NCBI GenBank assembly: GCA_903850425.1
Contig: CAINLR010000083.1
Location: forward strand, 28,444-92,443
Direction of reading: 5' to 3'
Source: an uncultured Verrucomicrobia subdivision 3 bacterium
GTDB lineage: Bacteria; Verrucomicrobiota; Verrucomicrobiia; Limisphaerales; UBA11358
DNA: 64,000 nucleotides
Both the position numbers and the translations under genes were made by a program. The notes beneath the pieces were generated by a model. That model did no database searches and was not told the DNA's origin. It saw only the letters and a list, made by a program, of their open reading frames with translations. Positions 9,201-31,827 of this stretch are shown here, piece after piece; position 1 is the first letter of the stretch; each line of letters opens with the position of its first letter.

Positions 9201-12200
9201 ATCCGGTTGCGGGTGACGCCGCTACAATGGGTGAACAACCCGCCCACTACTATCCGGCTGTCCGTCTGCACCGCAATGCTCAACACGGCGGCATCGGCAC
9301 CCAAGCCAGGATTAAAGGTGGTATCCGTCGAGCCATTCGCACTGTTCAAGCGGGCGATATGATTGAAGTAGGGGTTGCCATTGACACTGGTGAAGAGACC
9401 GCCGAGCAAAATCTGGCCGTCCAATTGGATTGTAATGGCGCGGACGGAATCATTGGCCGTCGCGTTGGTGAAGGTCAGGTCCACGGAACCATTCGCATTC
9501 AACCGCGCCACATGGTTGGCCGGAATGCCGTTCACCGCCGTAAAGTCGCCGCCGATCAGCAGCTTGCCGTCGCTTTGAACGGCCAGCGCATAGACCGTGC
9601 TGTTGGCACCCAGGCCACCGACATTGAACGTGGTGTCGGGCGTGCCGTCGTCATTCAAGCGGCCGATGCCGTTGACAATTTCGCCGTTGAGCAACGTGAA
9701 GTCGCCCGCAGCCAGAATCTTTCGATCGCTGCCAACAAAGGTTTCCGCCACGGCATACACCGGGTTGTCCGCGCCGGAACCCGGATTAAACAAACTGTCG
9801 AGTGAACCGTCATGATTCAGGCGGGCGATGCGGTTCATCACCACGCTGTTCAGGTTGGTGAAGTAGCCGCCCACGAGAATGCGCCCATCCGACTGGATGG
9901 CGATGGCCCGCACGGAACCATCCGCGCCCATGGTCGTAATCGGCAGGGAGAACGCCGCATCCAGCCCGCCATTCGCGTCCAGGCGCGCGAGGTGTTGACG
10001 GCGGACCCCGTTGGCCATCGTGAAATCACCACCCACCAACAACTGGTTGTCCGGCTGCAAGGCCAGGGCAAACACGGCGTCGTTGAAACCGGCAAAGTCA
10101 TTGTAAGTGACATCGGGCGAACCGGGCGTTTCATTCACGCCCTGCGGATCGCTCAACGTGGTATTGATAATGTTGAGCACGGCATTGCTCGGATTGCCCT
10201 GCGCATTCCACGGCGTGGCATTGCCCACGACCACGGCGTTGCTCAAAGAGAGATTCAAGGCGACCAGGCCATTGCTCGCTCCGGCCGCGATCGGCACGTT
10301 GAAATACTTGGTGACTTCCCCGTTGGTGAAGGTAAGCAAACCGGCGCTCGTGGTGTAGTTGACACCCGCCAGGGCCGTGTTGTCCACCGTGGTATAATTC
10401 ACCGCCACCGTGCCGGCATTACCACCGGAGCGCACGACCGGGATCAGTGCGAATCCGCCGTATTTCTTCACCGAGTAGGCCGCGCTGCTAAATTCCACCG
10501 TGCCGGGGAAGTCCGCGTTGACGATGTTCAAAACCGTATTGGTGCCGCCAAAGCCCAGCACCACGGCATTATTCGTGACTGAATTCAATACTCCGTTGGT
10601 CAGGCGCAGGTTCACAGTCAGATCCGGCGTGAACACGCCATCGTGCTTGACGGGGATGGACACGAACTTGGTGACGACTTCCCCGTTGGCCCAACTGATA
10701 TTAGTAGAGGTGCCGACATAGTTCAGTCCATTGGTGGCCGTGCCGTCGCTGGTGATCACCGTCACGCTCAGACTGCCTTGAGCCTGGCCGAGGCGGCTGA
10801 TGCCAATCAGCGCCGTCCCGTCGGTTTCATTGACGTTGTTGGTGCCTGACACGAAGCCAAGGTGGCCGTTTTTCCCATTGTTGTTGACGATGGTCAGCAC
10901 CGCATTGGTCAGGCCGAGCGTAGCTCCGCCCGCTGGTGTATAGATCCACAGATTGACCGTCTTGTCCGGCTGGGCGGTTGTGCCTTTGATTATCGGAATG
11001 GTAAACGTCTTGATGCTGTCGCTGTTCTGGAACGTCAGCGTGCCAGTCGCGTTGGTGTAGTCTATGCCATTAGTGGCGGAACCGTTGACGGTCACATAAC
11101 TCACCTGCACCACGCCGCCGGTGAAGTTGGTGCGAGTGATGGTGATGGTGGCGACGCCGCCATTCTGATTCACCACATACGTCGGCGCACTAAAGCTGAG
11201 GACACCCGGCTTGTAATTGTCGTCAATGATCGTCATCGCCGATGCATCCTGCCAGCCCAGCGCCGGTTCCAAGGGAATCTTTTCACCGCCGAGCAAGAAG
11301 CTCGATCCATCCGGTTTCGACACCGCCAGATTGGCGTTCTTATTGCCAGAGATATTGGTGGTGTTATTTATGTTAAGGTAAACATAAGGACTATTATTTG
11401 GCGGTAACCTGGTCGGAAGGGTCCGGTAGTTCGGACCATCGAAGGCCGGACTTATCATCCATTCATAGGACGGGCTTGCAGACCATAGAGTCGGCCAGAT
11501 CGGCGCCGTATAAACCGGCTGAATTGCGAAGTCATCCCCAGTGGCGATGCCTGGTCCGGGAGCCGCCGTGTTTGTGGAGAAAGTAACTGAAGCCGGCCCC
11601 AAGTTACCGTTGGTGCGCACCAGCGACACAAACAAGGTGCCGGCACTCTTGTCCACCGTGTATTTGTTGTAGGAAAGCGACATGTTGCCGGGGCCAGGCG
11701 TGCCGCCGCCGATCAGCCGCGCCACGTTGCTGCGCGGATGAATGTCTTTACGCGTAGACCCGCCGCCCACCCGGAGGAAGCCCCCGCCAATGATCACGTT
11801 CGTGGTGCCCGGTTCCACCGCAATGGCGTTCACAAAATTGCGGTGATTGCCTTGCGGATACAGCGCGGTATTCACCGCGTCCGGATTGTGATAGTGCGGA
11901 ATCAAGCCAGCAAACTGGTTATAGTAAGTATCCATGAAGCTGGTGTCCAAACTGCCATAGTCGAACAACCGCGCAATGCCCAGACGCCGGGTCTGGTTGT
12001 AAGTCGTGAAGTCGCCACCGATCAGTATCGTGCCATCCGGTTGCAAGGTGATGGCGGTGACCGAATCCGCTACAAACGTCACCGGATTGAAAGTGCCGGT
12101 GCCCGGATTGAAACTCGGATCCACCGAGCCATCTGCATTCAGGCGCAGGAGGCCGTTGTAACTGGCCAGTTCATAATAAGAAATCGCACCGCCGATGAGC

Positions 12201-15200
12201 AGTTTTCCATCATCCTGTAAAGCCATTGCAAAGATCGGATCCGTGAACCCGGTGTCCGCGTTGTAAGTGCCGATGCCGGGGTCAAACGCCGGGTCCACCG
12301 TGCCATCCACATTCAACCGCGCCACGCCGCCGCGCAATATGCCGGCCACATGCTCAAATTCGCCGCCAATGTTGACCCGGCCCAGCGGATCCACCACCAC
12401 AGAGTTCACGGTCGCCGCCACCACTTTTCCGTCCACTACTTTCGTGGGCCCAACGCCTGGATTGAAACTCAGATCCAGCGAACCGTCCGCATTCAACCGC
12501 GCGATGGAGTTGCAATTAGTCCCGTTGACCGACGTGAAATAGCCTGCGATGACCACCTGGCCATTGGTCTGGAGCGACATGGACCAGACCATCGCATTCG
12601 TGCCGCGCACGCCCAGGCCCGTGCCCAGCGTGCCATTCATGAAGGTGCCGTCCACCGAGCCATCCGTATTCAAGCGGGCCACGTGGTAGCGATTCGCCCC
12701 GTTGAAGGAGGTGAATTTACCAGCAATGAGAATTTTTCCATCCGGCTGCACCGCCAGGGCCGCGATGAAATCATTGGCCCCGCTGTTAGGTGCCGCCAGG
12801 AAAGTGGTGTCCTGATAACCATTCGCCAACAGCCGCACAATGCGGTTGTAGGGATTGGAATCAAAGGAGATGAAGCTGCCGGCCACAATGGCTTTGCCAT
12901 CGGGCTGTTCCGCCACGGCATACACCGTGCCACCATTACCCGTCGAACTGCCGCTGACACCGCCATCGGTGCCGGGGTAATTTAAGAAGGGCGGCACTGA
13001 TTCCGACACGACATCCTTGTTCCAGCAACGATCCACCGCGCCAGCAGGCTGCTGGGTGCAGGTGCGATCATCAAATAGTTCCGTCAGGGTGGCATAGTTG
13101 AGCAGACCAACTTCAACTCCGGGCGTCGTTCCACTCGGTTTAGGGAGGGGATTGAACAACTGAATCCACATGTCCGCATTATTCTCGACTAATCCGTTGT
13201 TTAATATCGGAATCGTAATGGATTTTGGATTGTAATCGTAGGCTCCCCACGACAAGGTGCCGGAAACCGGCGTGTAATCGCTATTGGGGTTGGCATAATC
13301 CGACCCAGCCTGCAGCGGGAAGGTGTTGGCCGGTCCAAAACCACCAGTGAACGTCGAAGGTGGATCCCCACCGCCATTCAAGCCCGGAGTTGGGTCCATA
13401 ACATAGTCCACCGTCACTGACGCAGTTGGATCGCCACCGATGCGATAGACACTGATGATCGCGACGCCGCCAGACTCATCCTTGTCCACCCGGAAGGTCG
13501 AACGTTCAAAACAGAACGTGCCGACCGATGCTGGTTGTTTATATGCGGAAGAACTCCCACTATACTGTGAAGCATAGGCGTTGATGCGGCTACTGTGGTC
13601 GCCGCTGATGGTGGGCGTGATCAAATCGGGGGTTTCCAAGTCATCCAACCGAATGTTCTGGAGTTTCACCGTGATCACGCTGGAGATGTAAGGCAGCACG
13701 TTGCCATCGGGGCTACGCACCTGACTCACCGGCACCAAGACGTCTTTACTCATTTCATAGTCATCAAAGAACAACGTATTGGAGACGACGCCGAAGGCAC
13801 CCGAAGCCGGGATGATCTGAAGCACCGGAACCGGGAGATAGCGGTAAACACTGGAAGCGGTAATGGTAATATTGCTGTTGGCATCCACCGAGTTGGTCAC
13901 ACCGAGCGAGAAGGTGCCAATGGGCGGCAGGTTAGTGGGCACTGGATCGAGGATGCCCAAGCCGGAACTAAAGCTGTTGTAGTTGGCGGCGTTGTTGCTG
14001 CTGGACCAGACAAAGTTGGTGCGGCCCAGCGACGACGTCGTGTAGAGTAATTGGTTCGTGATCAGCGCGCCGTTGGTGTAATACGAATTGGTGAGATTCA
14101 GAAAACTCACCACGAAGTTGGTCCGAAAGTAATTGGTGTAAAGCTGCGCCCCACCCAGGAGAAGCGAGGAGATGAAGGTATTGGAGCCGTAAAAATTAGT
14201 CACCGCTTCATGCACCCACAGATTGGTATAGTTACCATAAACGACTGAGTTATTGGTAAAACTCGTGCCGTTCCCACCCCCCGATCCGTATATATCATTC
14301 GTGGTCGCGTAGCTAAAGATGTTGTTGAGCGTGATATTGGTCGCGACCCCCGCAATCCGGTTCGTGACTCCGGTGAAATAATTGGTGAACGCCGGGAACT
14401 TGGTCGGGATCGGCGTGAGCGCGCCTTGCACCAAAGGAAAGGTCGTTCCGTAGAGCGTGTTGGAGGATATCTGGCCGTAGATAGTGGTAACAAAATTGGT
14501 GAGTGCCCCCCACACAGGATAGGTGACGTAGTTGCCATAAATAAACGACTGGAAATAGTTAGTATAGACGATGAAGTTCTCCGAAGTATTGGTCGTGGAA
14601 GTCACTCCGTTCGTGTCGGTAAAGGTAATGGACACATTCGTGCCATAGTAATTGGTCAGAAAGGTGTTGGTATAGGTCTCATTGACGGTATAGAAATCCA
14701 CCAGCACCCGGCCGCTGGACCCATTCGTGCGCGTGACCGTTACCCGCGCCCCGAGCACACTTTGACTGACAGTGCCCCCGTCCTGACTGATCGGCGCGCT
14801 GGAATCCAAATCGCTGACATAATAGGCGGCCGAAGTGAAGGTAAAGTCGCCCGAACGGATCGTCGGTGGGACAACTGTAGCCATGGTCCAATTCAGCAAA
14901 AAGTTACCGGTCGGAGGCGTCGCCCCCGCCCAACCTTCCACACAAAAATAATAGGTTGTGCCGGCGACCGCCGTGAACGTCAAAACACTCTGCGGTGCAT
15001 TGCCACCCGCAATGTCATCATCATTGACAGCCAAATTGGTCAAACTCCCACCACACAGGCCATTGGTGGTGGTCCAAACCGACAGCACCGTGTCAAAATC
15101 GCTACCCAGAGTATCCAAGGTTACGGTGCCGCTATCCGTGGCGGTCCAAGCATACCAGACGGAATTGGTGACGGAATCTGGTCCGTAGGTCGGATCTATC

Positions 15201-15433
15201 AGACTATTGGTCTCGCACGGCGCTTCCAAGGTGGAGCCCACGTTGCTGCCATTGGTCGTTCCCGACGCGCCAGTGATGATCGTGGCGCTGGCAAAGTTAT
15301 CGTTGACCGGCTGCGCCTGGGCGAGGCTGGCCACCAGTCCGATGCCCGCCACCAAGGCCAGCTTCACGCTGCCGGCAGTGAACACACGCCCGGCCAACGG
15401 CAGGCTCGCAAGTATATTTAGAATCGTTTTCAC
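6203..15433 (-). CDS. Giant (3076 aa) secreted adhesin-like protein: PPC-like N-terminal domain, about 12 Calx-beta repeats, two delta-60 (beta-propeller) repeat clusters, ending in half a P-domain
   Basis: Signal peptide ...SLAQA|QPVNDNF. Repeated F....Y.V...G...V.V.R..G..G...V.Y.T..GTA..G..Y....GTL.F..GE units. Repeated A.A.QPDGKILI.G.F...NG......ARLN.DGS.D..F units. Confidence 0.9.
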   Translation of the reverse strand: MKTILNILASLPLAGRVFTAGSVKLALVAGIGLVASLAQAQPVNDNFASATIITGASGTTNGSNVGSTLEAPCETNSLIDPTYGPDSVTNSVWYAWTATDSGTVTLDTLGSDFDTVLSVWTTTNGLCGGSLTNLAVNDDDIAGGNAPQSVLTFTAVAGTTYYFCVEGWAGATPPTGNFLLNWTMATVVPPTIRSGDFTFTSAAYYVSDLDSSAPISQDGGTVSQSVLGARVTVTRTNGSSGRVLVDFYTVNETYTNTFLTNYYGTNVSITFTDTNGVTSTTNTSENFIVYTNYFQSFIYGNYVTYPVWGALTNFVTTIYGQISSNTLYGTTFPLVQGALTPIPTKFPAFTNYFTGVTNRIAGVATNITLNNIFSYATTNDIYGSGGGNGTSFTNNSVVYGNYTNLWVHEAVTNFYGSNTFISSLLLGGAQLYTNYFRTNFVVSFLNLTNSYYTNGALITNQLLYTTSSLGRTNFVWSSSNNAANYNSFSSGLGILDPVPTNLPPIGTFSLGVTNSVDANSNITITASSVYRYLPVPVLQIIPASGAFGVVSNTLFFDDYEMSKDVLVPVSQVRSPDGNVLPYISSVITVKLQNIRLDDLETPDLITPTISGDHSSRINAYASQYSGSSSAYKQPASVGTFCFERSTFRVDKDESGGVAIISVYRIGGDPTASVTVDYVMDPTPGLNGGGDPPSTFTGGFGPANTFPLQAGSDYANPNSDYTPVSGTLSWGAYDYNPKSITIPILNNGLVENNADMWIQLFNPLPKPSGTTPGVEVGLLNYATLTELFDDRTCTQQPAGAVDRCWNKDVVSESVPPFLNYPGTDGGVSGSSTGNGGTVYAVAEQPDGKAIVAGSFISFDSNPYNRIVRLLANGYQDTTFLAAPNSGANDFIAALAVQPDGKILIAGKFTSFNGANRYHVARLNTDGSVDGTFMNGTLGTGLGVRGTNAMVWSMSLQTNGQVVIAGYFTSVNGTNCNSIARLNADGSLDLSFNPGVGPTKVVDGKVVAATVNSVVVDPLGRVNIGGEFEHVAGILRGGVARLNVDGTVDPAFDPGIGTYNADTGFTDPIFAMALQDDGKLLIGGAISYYELASYNGLLRLNADGSVDPSFNPGTGTFNPVTFVADSVTAITLQPDGTILIGGDFTTYNQTRRLGIARLFDYGSLDTSFMDTYYNQFAGLIPHYHNPDAVNTALYPQGNHRNFVNAIAVEPGTTNVIIGGGFLRVGGGSTRKDIHPRSNVARLIGGGTPGPGNMSLSYNKYTVDKSAGTLFVSLVRTNGNLGPASVTFSTNTAAPGPGIATGDDFAIQPVYTAPIWPTLWSASPSYEWMISPAFDGPNYRTLPTRLPPNNSPYVYLNINNTTNISGNKNANLAVSKPDGSSFLLGGEKIPLEPALGWQDASAMTIIDDNYKPGVLSFSAPTYVVNQNGGVATITITRTNFTGGVVQVSYVTVNGSATNGIDYTNATGTLTFQNSDSIKTFTIPIIKGTTAQPDKTVNLWIYTPAGGATLGLTNAVLTIVNNNGKNGHLGFVSGTNNVNETDGTALIGISRLGQAQGSLSVTVITSDGTATNGLNYVGTSTNISWANGEVVTKFVSIPVKHDGVFTPDLTVNLRLTNGVLNSVTNNAVVLGFGGTNTVLNIVNADFPGTVEFSSAAYSVKKYGGFALIPVVRSGGNAGTVAVNYTTVDNTALAGVNYTTSAGLLTFTNGEVTKYFNVPIAAGASNGLVALNLSLSNAVVVGNATPWNAQGNPSNAVLNIINTTLSDPQGVNETPGSPDVTYNDFAGFNDAVFALALQPDNQLLVGGDFTMANGVRRQHLARLDANGGLDAAFSLPITTMGADGSVRAIAIQSDGRILVGGYFTNLNSVVMNRIARLNHDGSLDSLFNPGSGADNPVYAVAETFVGSDRKILAAGDFTLLNGEIVNGIGRLNDDGTPDTTFNVGGLGANSTVYALAVQSDGKLLIGGDFTAVNGIPANHVARLNANGSVDLTFTNATANDSVRAITIQLDGQILLGGLFTSVNGNPYFNHIARLNSANGSTDTTFNPGLGADAAVLSIAVQTDSRIVVGGLFTHCSGVTRNRITRLNPDGTVDPTINFGVGADSFVGAVVVQEATITGYPTNVPNEKIIIGGGFTHYFGESHEHLARIYGGSIGGSGEFEFSSANYGANENGTNALITVNRTGGTSGTNANGLGNIYVAFATTDGTAKADTDHASVTNYFTVLTNLVFAAGEVQRTIVIPVQDDLVVNGDLTVNLALTPVAPGERGNQPTALLTITNVDSAISFSAATYLVTKYGANVPDGYAPITINRSGATYGTSTVVFNTTSNGTAVVGVDYQPVTNGVITFAPGSAVQTVMVPIINGISDGDRTVSLQLTNATGSMMNNPSNALLTILDRTQSKGSFELSATNYVVSEGGGIGSTNLTVTVLRTNGAAGIVSVGYATANGTAVAGAKYFSTNGVLSFADGEMVKTFQVQVLNTATVEPTSYFFVQLTNASLGTSIFNPSNATVTILNTNVGIVFSLATNTFNETLPFATLNVLRYNNTVGTTTINYSTTNGSAVAGVNFVASSGTLTFNDGASQSVILVPLLYSTNATGDLQFTVGLSNPTPGVQLGNPSITTVILQDNDAGLSFTTNSVSVLKNAGNLVVTVVCSNTNVEPVAVTYNTADGAATNHATAGADYVTTSGTLIFSNGVSTQTFTVPIINNGAVSGNHVFTVSLSNPTGTGRLVPPTVQTVTIIDSNSGIRFSGANYTVLKTGGAALISVYRSDFTNTTSTVDFVATNGTAISGLNFVATNGTLVFTNGQTVATFSVPIIATTTVQPDLTVLLELNNAVNGVLLSPSAAKLTIHDNTGSYVIAAGAQLLSETNAGAANGIIDPNETVTVLFGLRDAGGTNVNNLNATLLATNGVTPINPVTANYGTLVYAGHSVSRPFTFTASGTNNQQIAATFKLQDGANNIGTAIFGFTLGTWTKKFANTNAIIINDNTNATPYPALINVSGVGGSLVKATVTLTNLSHTAPADIGALVVGPNGSNTLIMANAGGTFTVSHVTLTFDDAAATNLPTAGQIISGTNKPSGNLPVKSFP

Positions 15434-18500: not shown

Positions 18501-18525
18501 TCAATGAGGGGAAAAGTGAGTCCAT
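15502..18525 (-). CDS. Large secreted Thr/Asn-rich protein of unknown function with a DSDGDG Ca-binding loop and an 'RFYR' C-terminal domain
   Basis: Signal peptide ...AGPAQA|V, DIDSDGDGIVNSED motif, C-terminus ...KTNLLSSSWTVLTN...VTFSDP...QRFYRV. Confidence 0.75.
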   Translation of the reverse strand: MDSLFPSLNRPSRWLKFVPLAAVMCLCAGPAQAVDDTFYNSDFLDTTTLPVNTLQPINATNFVNDAGGTFSWDFSGVLSQSWINSLYSGWHYTRNFTNNGEMLSSTGFRFDTQTSGHAEAGNFYNTANINCGSGLNSIFLNQQLGLINGVYYGGYGGIYVNATNIVNTGTITVGSDGLGRFIGENLDFTTGNFSMQNSFVNFIGQTNTVNIYAVGETGTSTNNWYPDQDLTATTATSGIMKGNLFQLSLYNSKSYFSVDDKSNPTNWVIRMVFIQNSNTNVPYNVYHNTGGGGLGLNGFTTIEWIGAYLDPVTGSMATNYLYLSNDYIQGSSTNILKYVSGVPNNYTFQETASPLALGTPVPSSFPAIFNSGQPFPANFPVNTNIYSYMDAQLIATTITTNAIALTNIPGRFEFTANKELNLTLTRMSGMNYVLLKSTNNFDYDGQSEITAPYADLYLGKTNQSMTLTNLLLSSTPFWNGEVQAWNTRWFYTDTNSGITLDYRVVIVGSQLEPTTPSYQQDVVLYATNNVVISDALSVYHTLSLNCTNLTITANGEGALSPSGTLNLLTANMFWATCVPKVRCLTNDGAISTMNLTKFGSAALPYLSFVNTGSIINGNGTAIVANNFENSGSFYSGGGSFTLAGQTATLSGGTISANGAFSSTSDKITIAATSLSVGKSITLNATNLLTDHMPFTFNFGWPNQDFFSGNFWSLGSATAGSGGGFTSAAGLVLPIKPVKGDLLNTTIYSVAPSGTLITHTWAGQDRGYSPQGFTNNAAIGQLLLDAQGPAPHTGFYFAGTGGAGVTNAIYVDNLQLLDNATNGTLANQFNPTSLIFSNNLVIYYAQAMMNGSSIAEKLNHGNNDHLRWVSTYAGTYSSTNITYPSGETITVNAALAQSSDIDSDGDGIVNSEDTSSPFFLQSQIAFSLTFTKVPPLTAQLQWTTIPNATNYVWFKTNLLSSSWTVLTNFPSLLPYPSAPAAVTFSDPVSFTGQRFYRVSVVPWLTYPF

Positions 18526-18529
18526 AACT

Positions 18530-22159: not shown

Positions 22160-22169
22160 ACAAAATTTA

Positions 22170-24254: not shown

Positions 24255-25132
24255 ATCAACTCCGACTGCCGCTCACGGCATTGTTCTTCCAGCGCCGCCG
24301 CCAGACCTTTGAAACCCCAGCCGGCAAACAGGCCGCGCAATATATTTCGGTCCGGCGACTTCGGTTTCAGTTTCTCCGGCACCCATTCACAGGGCACTTC
24401 GTGCAGTCGCACGAGGGCCAGATTCCGACGCACATTCTCCGCCGCGCCGAGCAAGGCCGTCCGCAAGCGTTCGGATTTCACTTCAGCCAGCCGCGCCAAC
24501 AAAATTTCCACAGAACCAAACTGGTTCAACAATTCAGCCGCCGTCTTGGGCCCGATGCCGGCCACGCCGGGGATGTTATCCACCGCGTCACCCATCAACG
24601 CCAGCCAGTCGGCCACCTGCTCGGGCTCAACCCCCGCTTTCGCGTGGACTTGTGCGCGCGTCCAAACCGCGCCTGTCTTGTCGTTCGGATTCAACAAACC
24701 AATTTGATCCGAAACCAACTGCATAAAATCTTTATCCGCACTGGCAATGACCACCGGCCAGCCGTCTGCCGCCGCGCGCCGCGCCAGACAGGCGATGTAA
24801 TCATCCGCCTCGATCCCGTCGCCGCAAAATTCGGCCATACCCGCCGCCGCCAGATACTTTCCGATCTCGTCAAACTGCGGCCGCAAGTCGTCCGGCATTT
24901 CCGGCCGCTGCGCCTTGTAGGCCGGCAAAGCGGCCATCCGGGCCGCGCTCAAACCGCCATCCCAAACCACGATCAGGTGCGTCGGCTCCAAGGCCGCGCG
25001 CATTTTCTCGAGCATTTTTACAAAACCAAATATGGCATTCGTCGGCTGGCCGGAAGGCGAACGCAACTCGCGGATGGCGTGAAAGGCACGGTAGGCGTAG
25101 GCGTGTCCGTCAACAATCAGCAGCCGGTTCAC
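24251..25132 (-). CDS. Stand-alone 5'-3' exonuclease / flap endonuclease (PolA N-terminal-like)
   Basis: LLIVDGHAYAYRAF, TNAIFGF, YKAQR..MPDDL, EADD.I..LA, SADKDF.QL, GDAVDNIPGV.GIGPKTA (H3TH). No polymerase domain follows. Confidence 0.92.
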   Translation of the reverse strand: MNRLLIVDGHAYAYRAFHAIRELRSPSGQPTNAIFGFVKMLEKMRAALEPTHLIVVWDGGLSAARMAALPAYKAQRPEMPDDLRPQFDEIGKYLAAAGMAEFCGDGIEADDYIACLARRAAADGWPVVIASADKDFMQLVSDQIGLLNPNDKTGAVWTRAQVHAKAGVEPEQVADWLALMGDAVDNIPGVAGIGPKTAAELLNQFGSVEILLARLAEVKSERLRTALLGAAENVRRNLALVRLHEVPCEWVPEKLKPKSPDRNILRGLFAGWGFKGLAAALEEQCRERQSELI

Positions 25133-25797
25133 GGCTTCACTGCCAGGGCCGCCGCGCTGACTTTCTGCGAACCAACTTCCTTCACCACGCCATTGCCTTC
25201 CGACTGCTCGGGCGTGGTGGACTGCGCAAACGGCATTTCGTCGGGGGAATGCACGCGGTTGCCGGCCGGATCCACAATCGTCGCCGTGACAAAGATCATC
25301 AGGTTTTTCTTGACCGCGTGCTTGCTCTGGCTGCGGAACAAACCGCCCACCAACGGAAGATCACCCAAGACCGGCACCTTGTCCTTGGTGCTTTGCTGTT
25401 GCGAGGAAATCAACCCGCCAATCACCACGGTCTGGCCGTCCCAGACGTTCACCGTGGTCACGACCTGCCGCACTGTGAAGTTCGGCAGAATCGTCGGCAA
25501 CTGCACGACGTTCAGATTGCCGGTGACATTGGGGATATTCGGTGGCGCATCGTAGCCATTAAAATCGGTCATGGACGGAATGAGCGCCATGTTGATGGTG
25601 AATCCGTCGGACAAAACATACGGCACCACATCCAGAATCGGCCCGGTTTCCACGGATTGCGTGGTGGGCGTGATCGCGGAAGTTCCGGGATTGATCTGTT
25701 GGACTTGCGCCTGTAGCGACGGCGCCGCGACCAGACCACCGAGCGCCAGCGCGACGACTGCCGTTAGCCGAAGTTGATTTGCAGAATTGATTTTCAT
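25129..25797 (-). CDS. Secretin, C-terminal part, encoded as a separate gene with its own signal peptide
   Basis: GAGG RBS, then MKINSANQLRLTAVVALALGGLVAAPSLQA|Q, then secretin core strands TQSVETGPILDVVP...DGQTVVIGGL...KVPVLGDLPLVGGLFRS...LMIFVTATIVD. Confidence 0.88.
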   Translation of the reverse strand: MKINSANQLRLTAVVALALGGLVAAPSLQAQVQQINPGTSAITPTTQSVETGPILDVVPYVLSDGFTINMALIPSMTDFNGYDAPPNIPNVTGNLNVVQLPTILPNFTVRQVVTTVNVWDGQTVVIGGLISSQQQSTKDKVPVLGDLPLVGGLFRSQSKHAVKKNLMIFVTATIVDPAGNRVHSPDEMPFAQSTTPEQSEGNGVVKEVGSQKVSAAALAVKP

Positions 25798-25816
25798 GTT
25801 GCCTCGTTTCAAGAAA

Positions 25817-28147
25817 TTATTGGCCGGCACCATTGCCACCGCCATTGACATTGCCCGTTTGTGCCGAACTGCCCTGCTGGAAGTTCAAGCCCGTGATGAT
25901 GGTCACGACCTGAGACGCCCGCATTTGGGTCTGGCGTCCGCTCGTGGTGGTGACTTCAGGTTCCGCCAAGGTTTCAAACCCGGTGCGTTGTTCAAGCGCG
26001 TGCAAGGTCACCTGGAAATTCGGGTCCGTCAAAATGCCCGTGATCGTGCCCAGCGCTGGCGCGGAATTACGCAGACCGCCTGTGAGCAACTGGTCGCCCG
26101 CGGAACCAGGGATTAGATTGGCGGCGGTATTGCCGGGAAACGCCCCCAGCGGATTGGCGGCCGAAGTGGGCACGTTAAGCGAGGGTGAACTGCCACCGGT
26201 GCCGACCACCTGGCCACCCATGTTAAACTGCCCCATGGACCAGTTGAAACCCAAAGCCTTGTCATCGGTTTGTTGCACTTCAATGAAGCGTGACTTGATA
26301 TGGACCTGTGGCGCGACTTCGTTCAACATCGCAATGGCCCGCTCAATGGTGTCCAAATCCTGCTCCGTTGCTTTGACGAGGAGTTTGCCCAACCGGTCAT
26401 TAAAGAAAACAGACTTGCCGGGCGGGTTTTGCAAATTCACACCCAGCGCGGTGAAGAACGACCGAGCCAACTCACTGGGCGTCGCGGCCGAGGTCTGCGT
26501 GGTAATATAATTTATTCCACCTTGGTTTTGACCTTGACCACCTTGACCACCGCCACCACCGGTTCCACCACCAACTCCCCCCGCAGCACCGCCGTTCAAG
26601 ATGCTGCCGCCACCTTGCCCGCCACTACCGCCGCCGCCGCCGCCGCCGCCGCTTTGGCCTTGGTTACGAAGCTGTCCGCCACCGGCAAAGGGATTCACCA
26701 CCCCAACCACGGCGCCGCTGCTTTGACCGTTTTGACCACCGCCACCGCCACCGCCACCGCCGCCGCCACCGCCACCGCCACCGCCGCCATTTTGGGAGGA
26801 GCCACCGAAGCTGGTCGCCCCGACACTCTCAAGGCCGGAATAGAACGTGTTCGGATCAACCTTAAATATGCGGGTGAAAAGCTGGGGGGATTCCTCAGCT
26901 TTGGCGGAAAAGACAACGGCAAATTCTTGCACCGAGTATTTGAGCGGGTGATCCGCCACCAGCGTGATGGCATCGAGCACGTCGGCAAGCCGCACATCGG
27001 TCAGGGTGAGCTTGATTTGGACGGCAGCCACATCCACCGCTTCCGGAGCGCTGGCACCTGCGCCGGGCCCAGCGGCCGGCAACCCGGTGGCAGGATCAAT
27101 GGCGGGTGCCGGTGCGCCCCGACCTTCGGTCGCTCCTGGAAAGCCACCGCCCGCACCAAACTGGCCAACCGGTGCGGCCACTGGCTGCCCTGACTTGTCG
27201 GCATTTGGATTGATGATAAAATTAATGCCCTTGCGATCCACATCCCGCAGTTTGGATTGCTCGGTCAAATTGCGGAGCACTTCGGAGAGCGGCAGGCCTT
27301 CGTAGGCAATATTGTCCAGATGAATGCGGTCCAACTTGGCGATGATCGCCTGCCGGCCGGGCCCGGTCCAAACCTGATTGTTGGTGGCGTAGGGGTTGTT
27401 GAACTTGGGCAAATTAGCCCCGGAAACAGGCGCAATCCACTGCTTTTCAACATTCGCCATGCGATCCTGCGTGTCCACGGTATGCTGGGAGGTTTCCCGG
27501 ACAAATTTGGCCTGCTTGATGAGGTTGAGATAATAATAGGCACCGGTATTGTCGGGATCCAAGCGAATGGCTTGGGCCAGTTTGGCCTCGGCTTCTTCAA
27601 GCTTGCCCATTTCATAAAACAGTTTGCCGTCCTGCACGAGCGTCCCGGCTTCCGTTTTTTGCGCGTTAATTTGCGGCACCTGTTCCACGACCGCGAGACT
27701 GGGATACCGGCCCTTGTTGACAGCCAGCATCTGATCATTCTGCGCCTTGAAGGCGAGGGCAGCCGGATTTTTCGGGTCTGCTTTGAGCACCTGCGCGACT
27801 TGGGTGTTGGCTTCGCGCAAATCACCCCGGCTCTGGGCGTCGCGGGCTAGCGCCAAGCGGGTGGCGGCCAAACCGGCTTTGGCCTGCGCGGTCTCCACCG
27901 CGATGCCGGAGCCGATCTGTTCGGCTAACGCGCAGCATTCCTGGTAAAGTTTGGCGGCGGCGACCGTGTCGCCTTTCTGCGCGGCGGCTTGCGCCTCGGC
28001 CAGTTTTCCGCGGAGCACGACCGTGTAGGATTGGCGCAACACGGCTTCGTTGACCGCCAGCGCGGCAGAATTATCTTGCGCAGTCAGGATGCTGGGCGAC
28101 ACCAGCACGGCGGCAAGTCCGAGTGAAAAGAGAGCGGCTTTGGTCAT
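25817..28147 (-). CDS. Secretin (PilQ/GspD, Amuc_1098-like), N-terminal part: signal peptide, TPR, N-domains with a Gly-rich loop, first half of the secretin core
   Basis: TPR (GKLFYEMGKLEEAEAKLAQAIRLDPDN), N3 domain (FNDRLGKLLVKATEQDLDTIE), PQVHIKSRFIEV, TLAEPEVTTTSGRQ. Stops before the GxxLxVxP strand. Confidence 0.88.
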   Translation of the reverse strand: MTKAALFSLGLAAVLVSPSILTAQDNSAALAVNEAVLRQSYTVVLRGKLAEAQAAAQKGDTVAAAKLYQECCALAEQIGSGIAVETAQAKAGLAATRLALARDAQSRGDLREANTQVAQVLKADPKNPAALAFKAQNDQMLAVNKGRYPSLAVVEQVPQINAQKTEAGTLVQDGKLFYEMGKLEEAEAKLAQAIRLDPDNTGAYYYLNLIKQAKFVRETSQHTVDTQDRMANVEKQWIAPVSGANLPKFNNPYATNNQVWTGPGRQAIIAKLDRIHLDNIAYEGLPLSEVLRNLTEQSKLRDVDRKGINFIINPNADKSGQPVAAPVGQFGAGGGFPGATEGRGAPAPAIDPATGLPAAGPGAGASAPEAVDVAAVQIKLTLTDVRLADVLDAITLVADHPLKYSVQEFAVVFSAKAEESPQLFTRIFKVDPNTFYSGLESVGATSFGGSSQNGGGGGGGGGGGGGGGGGGQNGQSSGAVVGVVNPFAGGGQLRNQGQSGGGGGGGGSGGQGGGSILNGGAAGGVGGGTGGGGGQGGQGQNQGGINYITTQTSAATPSELARSFFTALGVNLQNPPGKSVFFNDRLGKLLVKATEQDLDTIERAIAMLNEVAPQVHIKSRFIEVQQTDDKALGFNWSMGQFNMGGQVVGTGGSSPSLNVPTSAANPLGAFPGNTAANLIPGSAGDQLLTGGLRNSAPALGTITGILTDPNFQVTLHALEQRTGFETLAEPEVTTTSGRQTQMRASQVVTIITGLNFQQGSSAQTGNVNGGGNGAGQ
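26540..26790. repeat. Low-complexity (GGC/GGT)n tracts encoding poly-Gly in the secretin
   Basis: Long CCGCCA/CCGCCG triplet runs translating to GGGGGGGGGGGGGGGG and GGQG motifs. Confidence 0.85.
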
Positions 28148-28201: not shown

Positions 28202-28996
28202 TCAGGGTGTAAATGGCAAAGGAGTTTTTTTCTGATTCGACTGATCGGCCAGAATTAATTCATTCTGGCTGACCTCCGCAACGATGTAGTCGGTCCCGTA
28301 AAAGGCAACCTTATCACCCGCCCGCCGGGCATGGAAAACTCTTTTTTCCGGATCGTAACGAAAATCCGCCGTGTAAGCATCCACCCGGCGATAGGGTCTT
28401 TCTTTCGACACCGTCGCCTTCTCGCCCGTGTCCACCAGTTTGACCACCAAGGCATCGGGATTATCCGGCGGACCTTTGATTTCGACCAGCGCGAAGGTGT
28501 CATTCGGTTTGTCGCCCGCCGAAACAAAGCGTTGCTGCTTGTGACGTTTGGCGGGTGTTTTTTCCGCCTGCTTCTCGACGCCAAAAACATAGCGTGCCCC
28601 CAGCTCGTTGGTGGTTACGTTGTCCAGCGTCAGGATCAAATAAAGCGGCGTGATGTTGGTGACCACCACGGCCTTGACACCAACCGCGTTGCCACTGTGC
28701 AGTTTGATCGGACCGTCCGGACCCTTTTGCCATTCCACCGGATTGAAGACTTTGTTGCCGGTTTCCAGATCCAAGGTGTAGCCGGACTTCAGCCGGGCGA
28801 TGGCGCTGCTCGGCACGCTCAAATCAAGATTGGTCAAGGGCTGAACGTGGGGATTATTGATATACTGGTCCCGCAGATCTTTCATCTTCTGGCTTTCCGA
28901 CGCGATGAAGAACGGCAGGAACACCAGGGCACCAACCAACCCCGCCAGCACCAGGCCGAGCAAGATCTTTTCGTAATGTTTTTTGAGAAAGTCCAT
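28202..28996 (-). CDS. Amuc_1099-like pilus-cluster protein with an N-terminal membrane anchor
   Basis: MDFLKKHYEKILLGLVLAGL N-terminus. Lies between the PilO-like gene and the secretin, as in the Akkermansia Amuc_1098-1101 cluster. Confidence 0.6.
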   Translation of the reverse strand: MDFLKKHYEKILLGLVLAGLVGALVFLPFFIASESQKMKDLRDQYINNPHVQPLTNLDLSVPSSAIARLKSGYTLDLETGNKVFNPVEWQKGPDGPIKLHSGNAVGVKAVVVTNITPLYLILTLDNVTTNELGARYVFGVEKQAEKTPAKRHKQQRFVSAGDKPNDTFALVEIKGPPDNPDALVVKLVDTGEKATVSKERPYRRVDAYTADFRYDPEKRVFHARRAGDKVAFYGTDYIVAEVSQNELILADQSNQKKTPLPFTP

Positions 28997-28997
28997 C

Positions 28998-29951
28998 TTA
29001 GCTTTTCGGCGACAGTTTCACGAACTCCACTTCCAGCGTGACCCGGAGCAATTGCTCCTTCAAAATTGTCTGCAATCCCCCCTTGCTGGAGGCGGGCGGC
29101 GCAACCTGGGCGGCTGGCGGCGGAAATTCGCCACGCCCGTAACGGTCGGGTATCCCCGTTCGCATGGGCGGCATGGCCACGGGAGACTCGTCGGTCGGCA
29201 GCGCGCCGGCGGCACCGGCGGGCTGGACATTGATGGACTTCACAATAAACGCATGGGGGGCGGTGGCAAAACCCGTCAGCACGCGCGCGAGTTCCGGCGT
29301 GAAGCAACGCAGCGTGATAACGTAAGGGGTCACTACCGCCAGATCATTCGTGATCGGATGGGTGTCCAGATAATCCGTGGCCGGCCCGGTGGCGTCGTCG
29401 TCTGAAACGCGCACGCGCTGAATGCTGTCGAGCGAGTTGATCCGGGAGGCAAAGAGAATTTCGTTGATGGCGTTGACTTCACCCAACTGAATGGCCAACG
29501 GCTCCAGACTGCCGCCGGCAAATTTCATCAACGTTCTCTGGGCGGTGAAGGAAAAATCATACTTCGGTGGCAAGACCACCCCGGCGCTCTCAGCCGCATG
29601 TTGCAAATGATCCACCGTCACCCGCAAGGCACCGGCATACGCCGCACTCGTTACCGGCCCATTGGCGGGAATCGCCGGAATCGGCTTGAAATGTTCGCCC
29701 GCTTGCTGAATCCACGCGCTCACCTGCTTTTCCTGATCCTTGGCAATCTGGGTGTTATTGATCTTGTCATTGCCCGGGGCCGGCTTCCGCCCCGCGATAT
29801 CTTTTAGGGTGGTGTAATATTCATTCAGCTTGTCGAACGCCACAGAGTTGCGCGTCCAGCCCTTGAAAATATAGAAGCCTGCCCCGCCCAGCAGCGCGAG
29901 CGCCAGCGCCCCGCCGACGACAAAGAATAAATTGCGTTTGATCCAGGCCAT
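28998..29951 (-). CDS. Amuc_1100-like (PilO-like) pilus assembly protein
   Basis: N-terminal TM helix and coiled coil; F.FSF...R; I..I.R.; C-terminal F..AP.AFIVK...V...L.V.L.VEFV; synteny with pilM. Confidence 0.7.
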   Translation of the reverse strand: MAWIKRNLFFVVGGALALALLGGAGFYIFKGWTRNSVAFDKLNEYYTTLKDIAGRKPAPGNDKINNTQIAKDQEKQVSAWIQQAGEHFKPIPAIPANGPVTSAAYAGALRVTVDHLQHAAESAGVVLPPKYDFSFTAQRTLMKFAGGSLEPLAIQLGEVNAINEILFASRINSLDSIQRVRVSDDDATGPATDYLDTHPITNDLAVVTPYVITLRCFTPELARVLTGFATAPHAFIVKSINVQPAGAAGALPTDESPVAMPPMRTGIPDRYGRGEFPPPAAQVAPPASSKGGLQTILKEQLLRVTLEVEFVKLSPKS

Positions 29952-29952
29952 A

Positions 29953-31827
29953 TCAAAAACTGGGCAGGTTGGTCGGTGCCACGTTCAACGTGAAGGTGAA
30001 AGTGCCGGTGGCGTCATCAGCCACAATGCTGCCAACCAGCGACGTGGCTTTGGGGTCAACGAACGGCGAGTTTTTGATTTCACTTTCCACGGCGAACGCG
30101 ATGGCGCTATTGGCGGCCGCATCCACGCTCGTGAGACTCACGGCGCGGCAAATCATCGTAATCATATTGGTGTTCCCCTCCTGCCCGGGAGTCGCCGCCG
30201 CCGTTTCCACTGGCGGCGGAGGAGGACTTTCACCCCGACCGTAACGGTTCGGAACGTCACCGCGACCCCGCATGCCGGGCGGAAATTCACCCATTACGGT
30301 GGGGGCCGGTGTTAATGCAGTTGCAACGGATGCCCCACCCAAGCTTGCATTGGCGATCATCTGTTCAATCCAGATGCCCGCCTCGACGTTCGGTTTTTGG
30401 GCCGAGAGTTTCTTCTTGATGCCGTCTTCGGAGCGCAGCAGCGCGCGGCGCATGTCTGCGACAAAATCGCCCCAATAAAATCGCTGCTGCATCCAGACGG
30501 TAATCAGGTCCGCGTCCTTCCGCGCTTTCTGCAATTTGGCGTAGGCCTTCTTGAAATTTTCGGATTTGTTATTGGCGGCCTGCACCAGCGGGTCCAGGTT
30601 GGCCACTTCCTGCTCCTTGTTGACCGCCAGTTTCTGGAACAAAAAACCGATCGCAAACAGCACCAGCACCAGACTGAAAACGGTCGCCACCAAGTAAGGT
30701 TTCTTCTGGTTGAAGGACTGCCAGCGCAACGTGCTCTCCGGCATCAAATTCATTTCCACCGGGCAGTTCGCCAAGTTGCGCAGGCCGAGGCCGACGACTT
30801 CGCCCAAGCCGTGCGCCACGCGCGACAATTCTTCCAGATTCACCGACGGATCAATCTGCACGTTGCGGAACGGATTGAAATATTCCACCGGCACCTGGAG
30901 TTTTTCCGCAAAAAACTGCGCCGTATAAGGCATGATGGACGCGCCGCCGGAAAGAAACAGGCGTTGCGGGGCCGAACCGCCCTGCTGGCCGCGATAAAAC
31001 TGCATCGTCTGGTTGACCTGGATGTGCAGCTTGGTCATGAACTGGCGCGCGATCTTGGAAATCGCCGCCTGATGCACGTTGTCCGGCTCTTCATACGCGC
31101 CGCCGAGACTCACAAAACCCTCGGCAATCTTGATCTTCTCCGCGTCGTCAAATTTCAATTTCGCCTCGTTCGCAAAATCCTGCGTGATGGCGTTGGCGCC
31201 CAGATTAATGCTGCGCGAAAAAACTTTTCCCTTTTCAAAGAACAGCAGGTTGCTCGTCTTGGCGCCGATGTCCAGCAGCATGGTGCAGTCAGCCTCGAGA
31301 TCGCCATAATTATATTTAAAGGCATTGCACAACGCGGCGGGCGAGGCGTCGCACAATTGCAGCTTCAGCTTCGCCTGATCGGCCATGCGGAACAGCCCCT
31401 CGACGATTTCCGACTTGATGGCGACGAGCAGCACTTCCAGTTCGCCGCTGGCGGCGGAACCGAGAATCTGATAATCCCACACGACTTCCGACAGCGGGAA
31501 CGGCACGTTTTGCTGCGCCTCGTATTGGATGATCTGGCCGACCTTGGCGGCATCCACCGGCGGGAGTTTGACAAACTTGGAAAAAACGTGGAAGCCCGGA
31601 GCGCAGACATTGACGCTGGTGGCCTTGAATTTTTTTTCGGCGAGAATTTCCTGCAGCGCGGCCAGAATGGTTTTTTCCCGCGTCGCCTCCTGCGCACCCT
31701 CCAGGCCGAGCGACTTGATGACAAAGTTCTTGAGCAACAATCCGCCCGCCTCATTGATTTCAAACTCGGCGAGCTTGAGGCTGCCAGCTCCGAAATCAAT
31801 GGTCAGAAATGACTTGGTGTTCAACAT
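29953..31827 (-). CDS. pilM: Type IV pilus assembly PilM (actin-like) fused to a PilN-like domain (Amuc_1101-like)
   Basis: IDFGAGSLKLAEF, EAQQNVPFPLSEVVWDY, LLDIGAKTSN, LSGGAS, C-terminal EMNLMP motif, then a TM helix and PilN-like region. Confidence 0.9.
   Translation of the reverse strand: MLNTKSFLTIDFGAGSLKLAEFEINEAGGLLLKNFVIKSLGLEGAQEATREKTILAALQEILAEKKFKATSVNVCAPGFHVFSKFVKLPPVDAAKVGQIIQYEAQQNVPFPLSEVVWDYQILGSAASGELEVLLVAIKSEIVEGLFRMADQAKLKLQLCDASPAALCNAFKYNYGDLEADCTMLLDIGAKTSNLLFFEKGKVFSRSINLGANAITQDFANEAKLKFDDAEKIKIAEGFVSLGGAYEEPDNVHQAAISKIARQFMTKLHIQVNQTMQFYRGQQGGSAPQRLFLSGGASIMPYTAQFFAEKLQVPVEYFNPFRNVQIDPSVNLEELSRVAHGLGEVVGLGLRNLANCPVEMNLMPESTLRWQSFNQKKPYLVATVFSLVLVLFAIGFLFQKLAVNKEQEVANLDPLVQAANNKSENFKKAYAKLQKARKDADLITVWMQQRFYWGDFVADMRRALLRSEDGIKKKLSAQKPNVEAGIWIEQMIANASLGGASVATALTPAPTVMGEFPPGMRGRGDVPNRYGRGESPPPPPVETAAATPGQEGNTNMITMICRAVSLTSVDAAANSAIAFAVESEIKNSPFVDPKATSLVGSIVADDATGTFTFTLNVAPTNLPSF

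What the first reader, a model, noticed from the sequence alone, without database searches (positions are those of the whole stretch)
25129..28147. Secretin split into two genes at the gate loop, with the C-terminal half given its own RBS and signal peptide
Seen: the 776-aa gene ends ...RASQVVTIITGLNFQQGSSAQTGNVNGGGNGAGQ*. After 19 nt containing GAGG, a new ORF in a different frame begins MKINSANQLRLTAVVALALGGLVAAPSLQA|QVQQINPGTSAITPTTQSVETGPILDVVP and supplies the rest of the secretin core. Established: in GspD/PilQ structures the segment between the 'AP.I.T....A.I.VG..VP' strand and the 'G..L.V.P' strand forms a central-gate hairpin. Inference: the barrel would assemble from two separately exported chains, with free termini at the gate tip. 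That could alter gating or allow passage of very large substrates such as the neighbouring 3076-aa protein. A dedicated signal peptide argues for selection rather than decay.
Basis: partly seen in the sequence, partly recalled or inferred. Interest (0 to 1): 0.85.

Follow-up and report, generated by a model that had tools for sequence, protein, structure and literature searches.

The report
Pilus secretin split at its gate

Summary
A 776-aa ORF (25817..28147, minus strand) ends in TAA. After 19 nt containing GAGG, a 222-aa ORF (25129..25797) begins in another frame with a Sec-type signal peptide. Together the two cover one secretin core: Pfam Secretin positions 1-44 and 38-169.

It is not an error or a pseudogene:
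- About 107 of 135 species genomes of the same family have the same break. A second Verrucomicrobial clade has it too.
- The frame offset (0, +1, +2) and the spacer (mostly 6-38 nt) vary between species. The stop, start and signal-peptide features are kept.
- Both halves are under purifying selection (dN/dS 0.12-0.14).
- One-piece orthologs read straight through. The split equals a roughly 100-nt insert of stop, spacer, ATG and signal peptide, and nothing of the mature protein is lost.

The cut lies between the two pivot positions that bound the Gate 1 loop, at the tip of a predicted hairpin.

The best reading is a two-chain protomer assembled by strand complementation. This is not shown by experiment.

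The link to the 3076-aa neighbour has no support. The gene belongs to a PilM/Amuc_1100-type cluster.

The nearest published precedent, rhizobial RhcC1/RhcC2, keeps the whole core in one chain. I rate this a new variant of a known kind.

The parts
25817..28147 (-). Secretin N-half gene (776 aa plus TAA). It holds its own signal peptide (MTKAALFSLGLAAVLVSPSILTA|QDN), a TPR region, Gly-rich linkers, an N3-like domain and the first part of the secretin core.
   Evidence: ORF. TPR and weak Secretin/Secretin_N Pfam matches. NF042912, GspD and PilQ NCBIfam matches. dN/dS of the last 245 codons is 0.14.
25820..25915 (-). N-side of the Gate 1 loop. These are residues 745-776, from the pivot-1 position (S745, aligned to the G of VGQ in PulD) to the free C-terminus ...GNGAGQ.
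   Evidence: HMMER alignment to PulD 6HCG. Pivot definition: PMC8563730 and PMC10550240. In 88 database N-halves the chain ends 41-50 residues after the EPE motif.
25817..25819 (-). TAA stop of the N-half
25798..25816 (-). 19-nt spacer with the Shine-Dalgarno-like GAGG (25802-25805). GC dips locally to 0.38.
   Evidence: Sequence. GC profile. Spacer is 6-38 nt in 61 of 65 split relatives. No promoter-like or terminator-like site lies between the halves.
25708..25797 (-). Signal peptide of the C-half (residues 1-30: MK.. n-region, hydrophobic core, SLQA|Q cleavage-type site)
   Evidence: Heuristic features are conserved in 14 of 14 relatives. They are also present in 107 of 115 database C-halves. 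AlphaFold2 helix 6-28. dN/dS about 0.6, so the sequence drifts while the character is kept.
25642..25707 (-). C-side of the Gate 1 loop. These are mature residues Q31 to G52, ending at the invariant pivot-2 glycine of VETGP.
   Evidence: G52 is invariant. One-piece orthologs run ...GGGGTT-INNPGPSAIT..VETGP without a break.
25129..25797 (-). Secretin C-half gene (222 aa plus TGA). It holds the rest of the inner barrel, Gate 2, the last outer-barrel strands and the C-terminal tail. Its stop overlaps the GTG start of the next gene (GTGA).
   Evidence: Pfam Secretin 38-169, E 1.3e-30. dN/dS of the mature part is 0.12.
28202..31827 (-). Upstream genes of the same cluster: a PilM-like protein (29953..31827, Amuc_1101 family), an Amuc_1100-family protein (28998..29951) and a 264-aa protein (28202..28996).
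   Evidence: All three are single-copy in the genome. The same gene order is found in relatives.

Best explanation
This is a natural gene fission of a type IV pilus-like (Amuc_1098/PilQ-type) secretin. The operon makes two polypeptides, and each is exported by Sec through its own cleavable signal peptide.

The N-half supplies the TPR region, the N3-like domain, the first two outer-barrel strands and the ascending Gate 1 strand. The mature C-half supplies the descending Gate 1 strand, the rest of the inner barrel, Gate 2 and the last two outer-barrel strands.

The two chains pair by beta-strand complementation into one protomer, and protomers multimerise into the usual double-walled barrel. The only covalent difference from a one-piece secretin is a break at the flexible, low-complexity tip of the Gate 1 hairpin, at the pore centre.

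Shown here: the break, its position in the fold, its conservation, the signal-peptide character and purifying selection on both halves. Inferred: export of both chains, signal-peptide cleavage, co-assembly and function.

Whether the break is adaptive or merely tolerated is open. The alternation of split and fused forms suggests both work.
For: 1. Same break in relatives.
- The same-locus ortholog is split in 12 of 24 genomes labelled 'same genus' first sampled.
- It is split in about 107 of 135 family genomes with an ortholog, against 24 whole.
- It is split in 66 of 80 best species-representative loci, all Verrucomicrobiota / 'Limisphaerales' MAGs.

2. The module is conserved, not its sequence.
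- Frame offsets are 0, +1 and +2 in 22, 11 and 32 loci. The median spacer is 21 nt.
- Signal peptides are 23-32 aa with a positive n-region, a hydrophobic core and an AxA-type site.

3. Nothing is missing. One-piece orthologs read ...T/G-rich tail directly into INNPG.SAIT..VETGP.

4. Selection. dN/dS is 0.14 for the N-half end, 0.12 for the mature C-half and 0.60 for the signal peptide.

5. Position in the fold.
- S745 aligns to the pivot glycine of PulD VGQ. G52 of VETGP is invariant.
- Gate 1 is defined as the loop between two conserved glycine pivots (PMC8563730, PMC10550240).
- AlphaFold2 of a one-piece ortholog gives strand 200-211, a low-confidence loop 212-232 and strand 233-253. The break point falls at residues 225/226.
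- The top 40 Foldseek matches to that model are all secretins.

6. Context.
- The gene sits in a PilM/Amuc_1100-type operon whose other genes are single-copy.
- No promoter-like or terminator-like site lies between the halves.

7. A second clade has the same layout, for example a 1.04-Mb contig with PilM / Amuc_1100 / 265 aa / 818-aa N-half / 33 nt / 194-aa C-half.

8. The C-half folded alone is modelled poorly (pLDDT 52.7) apart from the signal-peptide helix. The same strands score 70-85 in the one-piece context. This is weak evidence.
Against: - There are no protein-level data. No RNA run holds the stretch and there is no proteomics.
- No multimer modelling was possible.
- Signal-peptide calls are heuristic; no SignalP was available.
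- The AlphaFold2 model of the ortholog is only moderate (pLDDT 58.5, TM 0.30-0.36 to solved secretins).
- All carriers seen are uncultured MAGs.
- An unsplit paralog exists in the same genome on contig C74. It could in principle serve the machine instead.
- The pivot-1 glycine is S/T in this whole family, so gate mechanics may already differ from model secretins.
Confidence: 0.8

Rival explanations
1. The halves have become independent proteins. The N-half works as a periplasmic TPR or pilotin-like factor. The C-half either forms a reduced pore alone or is a remnant. No joint barrel is made.
For: Public annotation calls the N-halves 'TPR repeat protein' or 'hypothetical', with no Secretin domain detected. 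The N-half match to Pfam Secretin is weak (E 0.014).
Against: The last 245 codons of the N-half (N3-like domain, outer-barrel strands, ascending gate strand) are as constrained as the C-half, with dN/dS 0.14 against 0.12. N-halves always end within a 10-residue window of the Gate 1 loop. The C-half lacks two of four outer-barrel strands and one of four inner-barrel strands and is modelled poorly alone. The two genes stay adjacent with a median 21-nt spacer.
Confidence: 0.08
2. One chain is still made by recoding. Stop read-through or a ribosomal frameshift at the junction rejoins the halves.
For: In 22 of 65 relatives the halves are in the same frame, separated only by stops.
Against: In the window and in 43 of 65 relatives the frames differ, by +1 or +2. 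No conserved slippery or stimulatory sequence is present, and the spacer sequence and length vary. A joined product would carry a hydrophobic signal peptide inside the gate loop. A start codon, an SD-like motif and signal-peptide features are conserved instead.
Confidence: 0.02
3. The gene is a pseudogene in decay, or the break is an assembly or sequencing error.
For: A stop and a frame change inside a conserved domain is the usual signature of both. A few relatives do show probable indel errors at this locus (L053; G004).
Against: The same architecture is present in more than 100 species from many studies and sequencing platforms. Both halves are under purifying selection. There are no further stops. 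Per-run contigs of four runs match the junction exactly.
Confidence: 0.02

Closest known systems
Amuc_1098 ('PilQ') of Akkermansia muciniphila and the Amuc_1098-1101 pili-like cluster (NCBIfam NF042912, NF038287, NF045709; PMC4960237, PMC5332112)
   Same: The locus has the same gene order: PilM-like, Amuc_1100-like, a small protein, then a TPR-bearing secretin. Both halves match the NF042912 profile, N-half from position 19 on and C-half at 643-804.
   Different: The Akkermansia family model is one chain of 805 positions. Here the chain is cut in the Gate 1 loop. Scores (218 and 132 bits) are far below the equivalog cut-off of 750, so this is a distant relative and not an equivalog.
One-piece TPR-secretins of sister Verrucomicrobiota at the same locus (for example loci L098, L066, L109; proteins P0130-P0233, 943-990 aa)
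   Same: They are orthologous, with the same flanking genes and 60-75% identity. The Gate 1 loop has similar total length and is T/G/N-rich.
   Different: They lack the roughly 100-nt stop/spacer/ATG/signal-peptide module. On the gene tree they nest inside split clades. Counting gains and losses equally gives 4 changes (one gain and three losses), against 9 if the split could only be gained.
Rhizobial and Pseudomonas syringae Rhc-type T3SS 'split secretin' RhcC1 (NolW) / RhcC2 (PMC3574062, PMC3973906)
   Same: It is the published precedent for a secretin encoded by two or more genes. Its functional significance is also unknown.
   Different: On pNGR234a, RhcC2 is a 475-aa ORF holding the whole Pfam Secretin profile 1-169, and NolW is a 234-aa N-domain protein. 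That split lies ahead of the Pfam Secretin (gate and barrel) region, not inside it. Those genes are kilobases apart, in different transcription units, in a T3SS.
Model secretins with solved structures: GspD/PulD/XcpD, PilQ, InvG, f1 pIV (for example 6HCG, 5WLN, 6VE2, 7OFH)
   Same: The core is homologous. Gate 1 is a hairpin between two pivot positions, and its tip is the most variable and disordered part at the pore centre (PMC8563730, PMC10550240).
   Different: All of these are single chains with a Gate 1 of about 30 residues and glycine at pivot 1. Here Gate 1 is about 55 residues, pivot 1 is S/T, and the tip carries free chain ends.

Membership tests
Secretin superfamily (Pfam PF00263) | The complete C-terminal secretin core domain is present | tested here: met
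   It is met only by the two ORFs together: N-half at profile 1-44 (15.4 bits, below the cut-off) and C-half at 38-169 (106.6 bits, cut-off 27.5). Solved secretins are the only significant sequence matches and, for the ortholog model, the only significant fold matches.
Secretin superfamily (Pfam PF00263) | The core is carried on one polypeptide that multimerises into a double-walled barrel | tested here: not met
   The single-chain part fails: a stop, a 19-nt spacer and a new start lie inside the domain. Multimerisation is not testable with these tools.
Amuc_1098 family type IV pilus outer membrane protein (NCBIfam NF042912, equivalog) | The whole-protein score reaches the curated cut-off of 750 bits | tested here: not met
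   The scores are 218.5 bits (N-half) and 132.1 bits (C-half). This is the best-matching family but not an equivalog.
Amuc_1098 family type IV pilus outer membrane protein (NCBIfam NF042912, equivalog) | Genomic context with Amuc_1101-like PilM and Amuc_1100-like genes | tested here: met
   NF045709 matches at E 1.3e-140 and NF038287 at E 6.3e-17 on the upstream genes. Both are below their equivalog cut-offs.
Type IVa pilus secretin PilQ (TIGR02515) / T2SS GspD (TIGR02517) | The score reaches the family cut-off | tested here: not met
   PilQ scores 47 and 71 bits against a cut-off of 284. GspD scores 51 and 91 bits against 351.
Type IVa pilus secretin PilQ (TIGR02515) / T2SS GspD (TIGR02517) | Pilin, extension ATPase and platform genes act with it | tested here: inconclusive
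   None was found next to the cluster. Upstream neighbours are a heptosyltransferase, a response regulator with HDOD and a CCA/poly(A) polymerase-type enzyme. The rest of the genome was not searched for them.
Rhc-type split T3SS secretin (RhcC1/RhcC2) | T3SS context, with the split between the N-domain protein and a protein holding the whole core | tested here: not met
   pNGR234a RhcC2 holds PF00263 1-169 in one ORF, and NolW is 234 aa. Here the cut is inside the core and the context is pilus-like.
Sec (SPase I) signal peptide on the C-half | A positive n-region, a hydrophobic h-region of 10 or more residues, and small residues at -3/-1 | tested here: met
   In the window the net charge is +2, the best 10-residue hydrophobicity window is 2.68 and the site is SLQA|Q. 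The features are seen in 14 of 14 relatives, 107 of 115 database C-halves and 51 of 53 of the second clade. These are heuristic scores; no SignalP was run and cleavage has not been shown.

The most novel reading that the evidence does not exclude
The break is used, not just tolerated. There are two possible uses.

1. A pore whose central-gate hairpins all end in free chain termini gates differently. It might open more easily or more widely for the Amuc_1100-type filament or another cargo.
2. Splitting the barrel acts as an assembly safeguard. No pore can form until two separately exported chains meet at the outer membrane.

The repeated switching between two-piece and one-piece alleles, and a probable second origin at the same loop in another clade, would then reflect selection in different niches.
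Probability: 0.22. Interest if true: 0.8.

Novelty: new variant of a known kind. Interest (0 to 1): 0.6.

Why it matters
Secretins are always studied as single chains. How their very large barrels fold, insert without BAM and gate is still worked out on a handful of model proteins.

A natural secretin built from two chains, conserved across more than 100 species, shows that covalent continuity of the central gate hairpin is dispensable. It also shows that the barrel core can be completed in trans.

It offers a ready-made system of paired split and fused orthologs for testing what Gate 1 continuity contributes to sealing and opening. It gives a design rule for splitting or inserting into secretins at the gate tip.

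It also corrects annotation. The N-halves are filed in public databases as 'TPR repeat protein' or 'hypothetical', and the C-halves as short 'GspD'. Surveys will therefore score pilus or secretion machinery in these abundant peat, soil and lake Verrucomicrobiota as incomplete.

Tried and rejected
- Origin of the signal peptide. I asked whether the C-half signal peptide is a copy of the N-half's own. Same-genome pairs are no more alike than different-genome pairs (local score 22.4 against 23.0; shuffled 18.1). There is no evidence for this.
- Mixed alignment A2. I aligned N-fragments, C-halves and whole proteins together as AlphaFold2 input. MAFFT misaligned the fragments. I discarded it and used whole proteins only (A3).
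- Gate-region probe. A short probe against PDB sequences was by mistake a chimera of the window and G012 sequence. It gave only a weak Neisseria PilQ match (E 0.23). I use it only as a loose illustration.
- pNGR234a. My first guess at the coordinates of the T3SS region missed. A Pfam search of the record solved it.
- Expression evidence. No RNA run holds the stretch.
- Nicked secretins. I looked for an experimental precedent in the PulD trypsin-resistant core. The key paper (Chami 2005) is not held, and PMC4604470 gives no cleavage sites. No claim is made.
- Outgroups. G012 and G009 (1849-aa and 1689-aa open frames) proved to be members of a paralog clade with the window genome's C74 copy, not orthologs.
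- G027's family holds only that genome, so conservation of the second clade could not be tested that way. A protein database search tested it instead.
- Literature searches for split, bipartite or two-gene secretins found only the Rhc T3SS case.


Full report
**1. Observation**

On the minus strand a 776-aa ORF (25817..28147) ends ...GLNFQQGSSAQTGNVNGGGNGAGQ-TAA. A 19-nt spacer follows (25798-25816, tttcttgaaacGAGGcaac). ATG at 25797 then opens a 222-aa ORF in another frame. It begins MKINSANQLRLTAVVALALGGLVAAPSLQA|QVQQINPGTSAITPTTQSVETGPILDVVP.

- Pfam Secretin (169 positions) matches the first ORF weakly at positions 1-44 and the second strongly at 38-169.
- NCBIfam's Amuc_1098-family model (805 positions) is matched by the first ORF from position 19 on and by the second at 643-804.
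- The first ORF also has its own signal peptide, TPR repeats and a weak Secretin_N match.

The finding is accurate as described. The ATG at 25851 that the ORF listing offers is not conserved as a start in relatives.

**2. Not an error and not decay**

*Relatives.* A six-frame search of 40 related genomes found the same locus everywhere: pilus-cluster genes, then the secretin, then a 5'-3' exonuclease. Of the 24 genomes labelled 'same genus', 12 have the secretin in two ORFs broken at the same place and 5 have it in one piece. Two more (G012, G009) gave only a very large one-piece gene, later shown to be a paralog. The other five gave partial or weaker matches and were not classified. One genome from another family (G027) is also split.

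*Census.* In 151 species genomes of the family, 135 had an ortholog. About 107 of these are split and 24 are whole (my count from the open-frame lengths).

*Species representatives.* Among 453 matching loci in one-genome-per-species contigs, the best 80 are all MAGs. Most are labelled Verrucomicrobiota, Verrucomicrobiia/-ae, subdivision 3 or Limisphaerales; some carry generic or evidently wrong labels. Those with informative isolate names (SPRUCE, bog, palsa) point to peat. Of the 80, 66 are split, 5 are whole, 1 carries a probable indel artefact and 8 were not parsed.

*Databases.* Protein databases hold thousands of such halves.
- 2648 short proteins match the C-half at E <= 1e-10, and the top 120 are all 202-236 aa.
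- N-halves of 724-799 aa have no detectable Secretin domain. They are named 'TPR repeat protein' or 'hypothetical'. They sit beside whole proteins of 943-990 aa.

*What is conserved is the module, not its letters.*
- The frame offset is 0, +1 or +2 in 22, 11 and 32 loci. The spacer has a median of 21 nt and is 6-38 nt in 61 of 65 loci.
- The signal peptides diverge freely (dN/dS 0.60). They keep a positive n-region, a hydrophobic core and an AxA-type site followed by Q.
- The mature C-half and the last 245 codons of the N-half are strongly constrained, with dN/dS 0.12 and 0.14 pooled over 20 pairs.
- N-halves stop in a narrow window, 41-50 residues after the EPE.TT.SGRQ motif.

*Reads.* Per-run contigs from four lake-water metagenomes match the junction without a single difference. 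This is weak and possibly non-independent evidence, but consistent.

**3. What the split removes: nothing**

One-piece orthologs read ...VVTGFSFQSPPASTSTGGGGTT-INNPGPSAITVDDQQVETGPLLDVVP. Split ones read ...T/G-rich tail, stop, spacer, Met plus signal peptide, AxA|Q(V/N)N..PG.SAIT..VETGP.

After signal-peptide cleavage the two chains add up to the one-piece protein. The difference is an insert of about 100 nt. In the window this insert is a local GC trough (0.38 against about 0.6). No promoter-like or terminator-like site lies between the halves.

**4. Where the cut lies in the fold**

Published structures define the central gate (Gate 1) as the loop between two conserved glycine pivots.
- In XcpD the gate is residues 466-496, between strands beta21 and beta22, with a poorly defined tip (PMC10550240).

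In the HMMER alignment to PulD (6HCG), the window's RAS745Q aligns with NVGQ. This is the pivot-1 position, which is S/T in this whole family. The invariant G52 of VETGP in the C-half is the pivot-2 glycine of the Pfam consensus. The chain break lies 31 residues after pivot 1 and 22 residues before pivot 2, in the middle of an unusually long Gate 1 of about 55 residues.

AlphaFold2 of a one-piece ortholog (L098, 409 aa, 27-sequence alignment) is only moderately confident (pLDDT 58.5). It gives strand 200-211, a loop 212-232 (pLDDT < 50 at 218-229) and strand 233-253, with the break point at residues 225/226. The 40 best Foldseek matches are all secretins (E 1e-17 to 1e-9; TM only 0.30-0.36).

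By that model the N-half contributes the N3-like domain, two outer-barrel strands and one inner strand. The C-half contributes three inner strands, Gate 2 and two outer strands.

The C-half folded alone is poorly modelled except for a helix at residues 6-28, the signal peptide. That fits a fragment that cannot fold alone, but it is weak evidence.

**5. Context**

Upstream lie a PilM-like gene (Amuc_1101 family, E 1e-140), an Amuc_1100-family gene and a 264-aa gene. All three are single-copy in the genome.

No pilin, ATPase or platform gene is adjacent. An unsplit, distantly related paralog lies on contig C74.

The 3076-aa gene (6203..15433) is about 10 kb downstream, beyond the conserved exonuclease and three other large genes. 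Nothing links it to the secretin.

**6. Evolution**

On a gene tree of 86 sequences, with the trait's own columns left out, a clade of 20 one-piece sequences and two single one-piece sequences nest inside split clades.
- Starred branches force at least four changes.
- Equal-cost parsimony gives one gain and three losses.
- A gains-only history needs nine gains.

A loss needs only one in-frame deletion. A gain needs a stop, a start and a signal peptide. Fission followed by repeated re-fusion is therefore the simpler history within the family.

The split secretin of G027, from another family, lies inside a 100/100-supported clade of six one-piece orthologs from other families. Its type is itself widespread: 1544 short proteins match, and the top 120 are 192-220 aa. 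Of the 53 in which my pattern found the anchor motif, 51 have signal-peptide features. The same operon sits on a 1.04-Mb contig. So either the same loop was cut twice independently, or the split is older with many re-fusions. These are gene trees, and recombination between alleles is not excluded.

**7. Mechanism**

The best reading is a two-chain protomer completed by strand complementation after separate Sec export (confidence about 0.8). The steps from export onwards are inferred.

The rivals are weak:
- Independent functions of the halves, about 0.08.
- Recoding into one chain, about 0.02.
- Pseudogene or error, about 0.02.

Whether the break is adaptive is open. That split and fused forms interconvert argues that both work.

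**8. Comparison with what is known**

The only published 'split secretin' I found is the Rhc-type T3SS RhcC1/RhcC2 (PMC3574062, PMC3973906). On pNGR234a, RhcC2 is a 475-aa ORF that holds the whole Pfam Secretin profile, and NolW is a 234-aa N-domain protein. That split does not cut the gate or the Pfam Secretin core, and the two genes are far apart. Literature searches found no description of a break inside the secretin core.

Earlier notes of this same scan report the same split in other genomes. They agree with this reading but are not independent evidence.

**Verdict**

This is a real, conserved, previously unpublished variant of a well-known protein family. Interest is moderately high. The proposed link to giant substrates is unsupported.

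Noticed in passing
window 26530-26800 (minus strand, N-half residues about 450-545): There are long poly-glycine tracts (runs of about 15-17 G) and G/Q/N-rich low-complexity linkers between the middle domain and the N3-like domain of the secretin N-half. Relatives have them too.
   Followed up: no
window 25129-25132: The C-half stop codon overlaps the GTG start of the 5'-3' exonuclease gene (GTGA). That unrelated gene follows the secretin in all family relatives examined.
   Followed up: partly
G000 contig C74:33000-34800 (locus L138): The same genome has an unsplit paralog secretin (open frame 1138 aa, 45% identity over the C-half). It groups with very large versions in relatives, with open frames of 1641-1849 aa in G009, G012, G006, G081 and G099.
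   Followed up: partly
L053 (CAVXLF010000012.1), match at 4001-4612: In this long-read MAG the N-half tail is frameshifted, so it reads through the spacer into the signal peptide (..AAVASRHRHSINQSIFCNRKMKNHKPNW..). This is probably an indel error; its close relative L070 has the normal stop.
   Followed up: partly
G004:C7:35140-35761; G160 (two places): In G004 the C-half is itself broken into two overlapping frames. G160 carries two split copies, with 6% contamination reported.
   Followed up: no
proteins P0214 (1247 aa) and P0235 (1315 aa): These one-piece relatives carry an added PF05569 (BlaR1/M56 peptidase-type) region fused to the TPR-secretin.
   Followed up: no
public annotation of P0121-P0240: N-halves are named 'tetratricopeptide (TPR) repeat protein' or 'hypothetical protein', with no Secretin domain. 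C-halves are named 'general secretion pathway protein D'. The pairing is not recorded anywhere I could see.
   Followed up: yes
window 15502-24254 (minus strand): Three large ORFs without Pfam domains or with very few (694, 1238 and 1007 aa) lie between the exonuclease gene and the 3076-aa gene.
   Followed up: no
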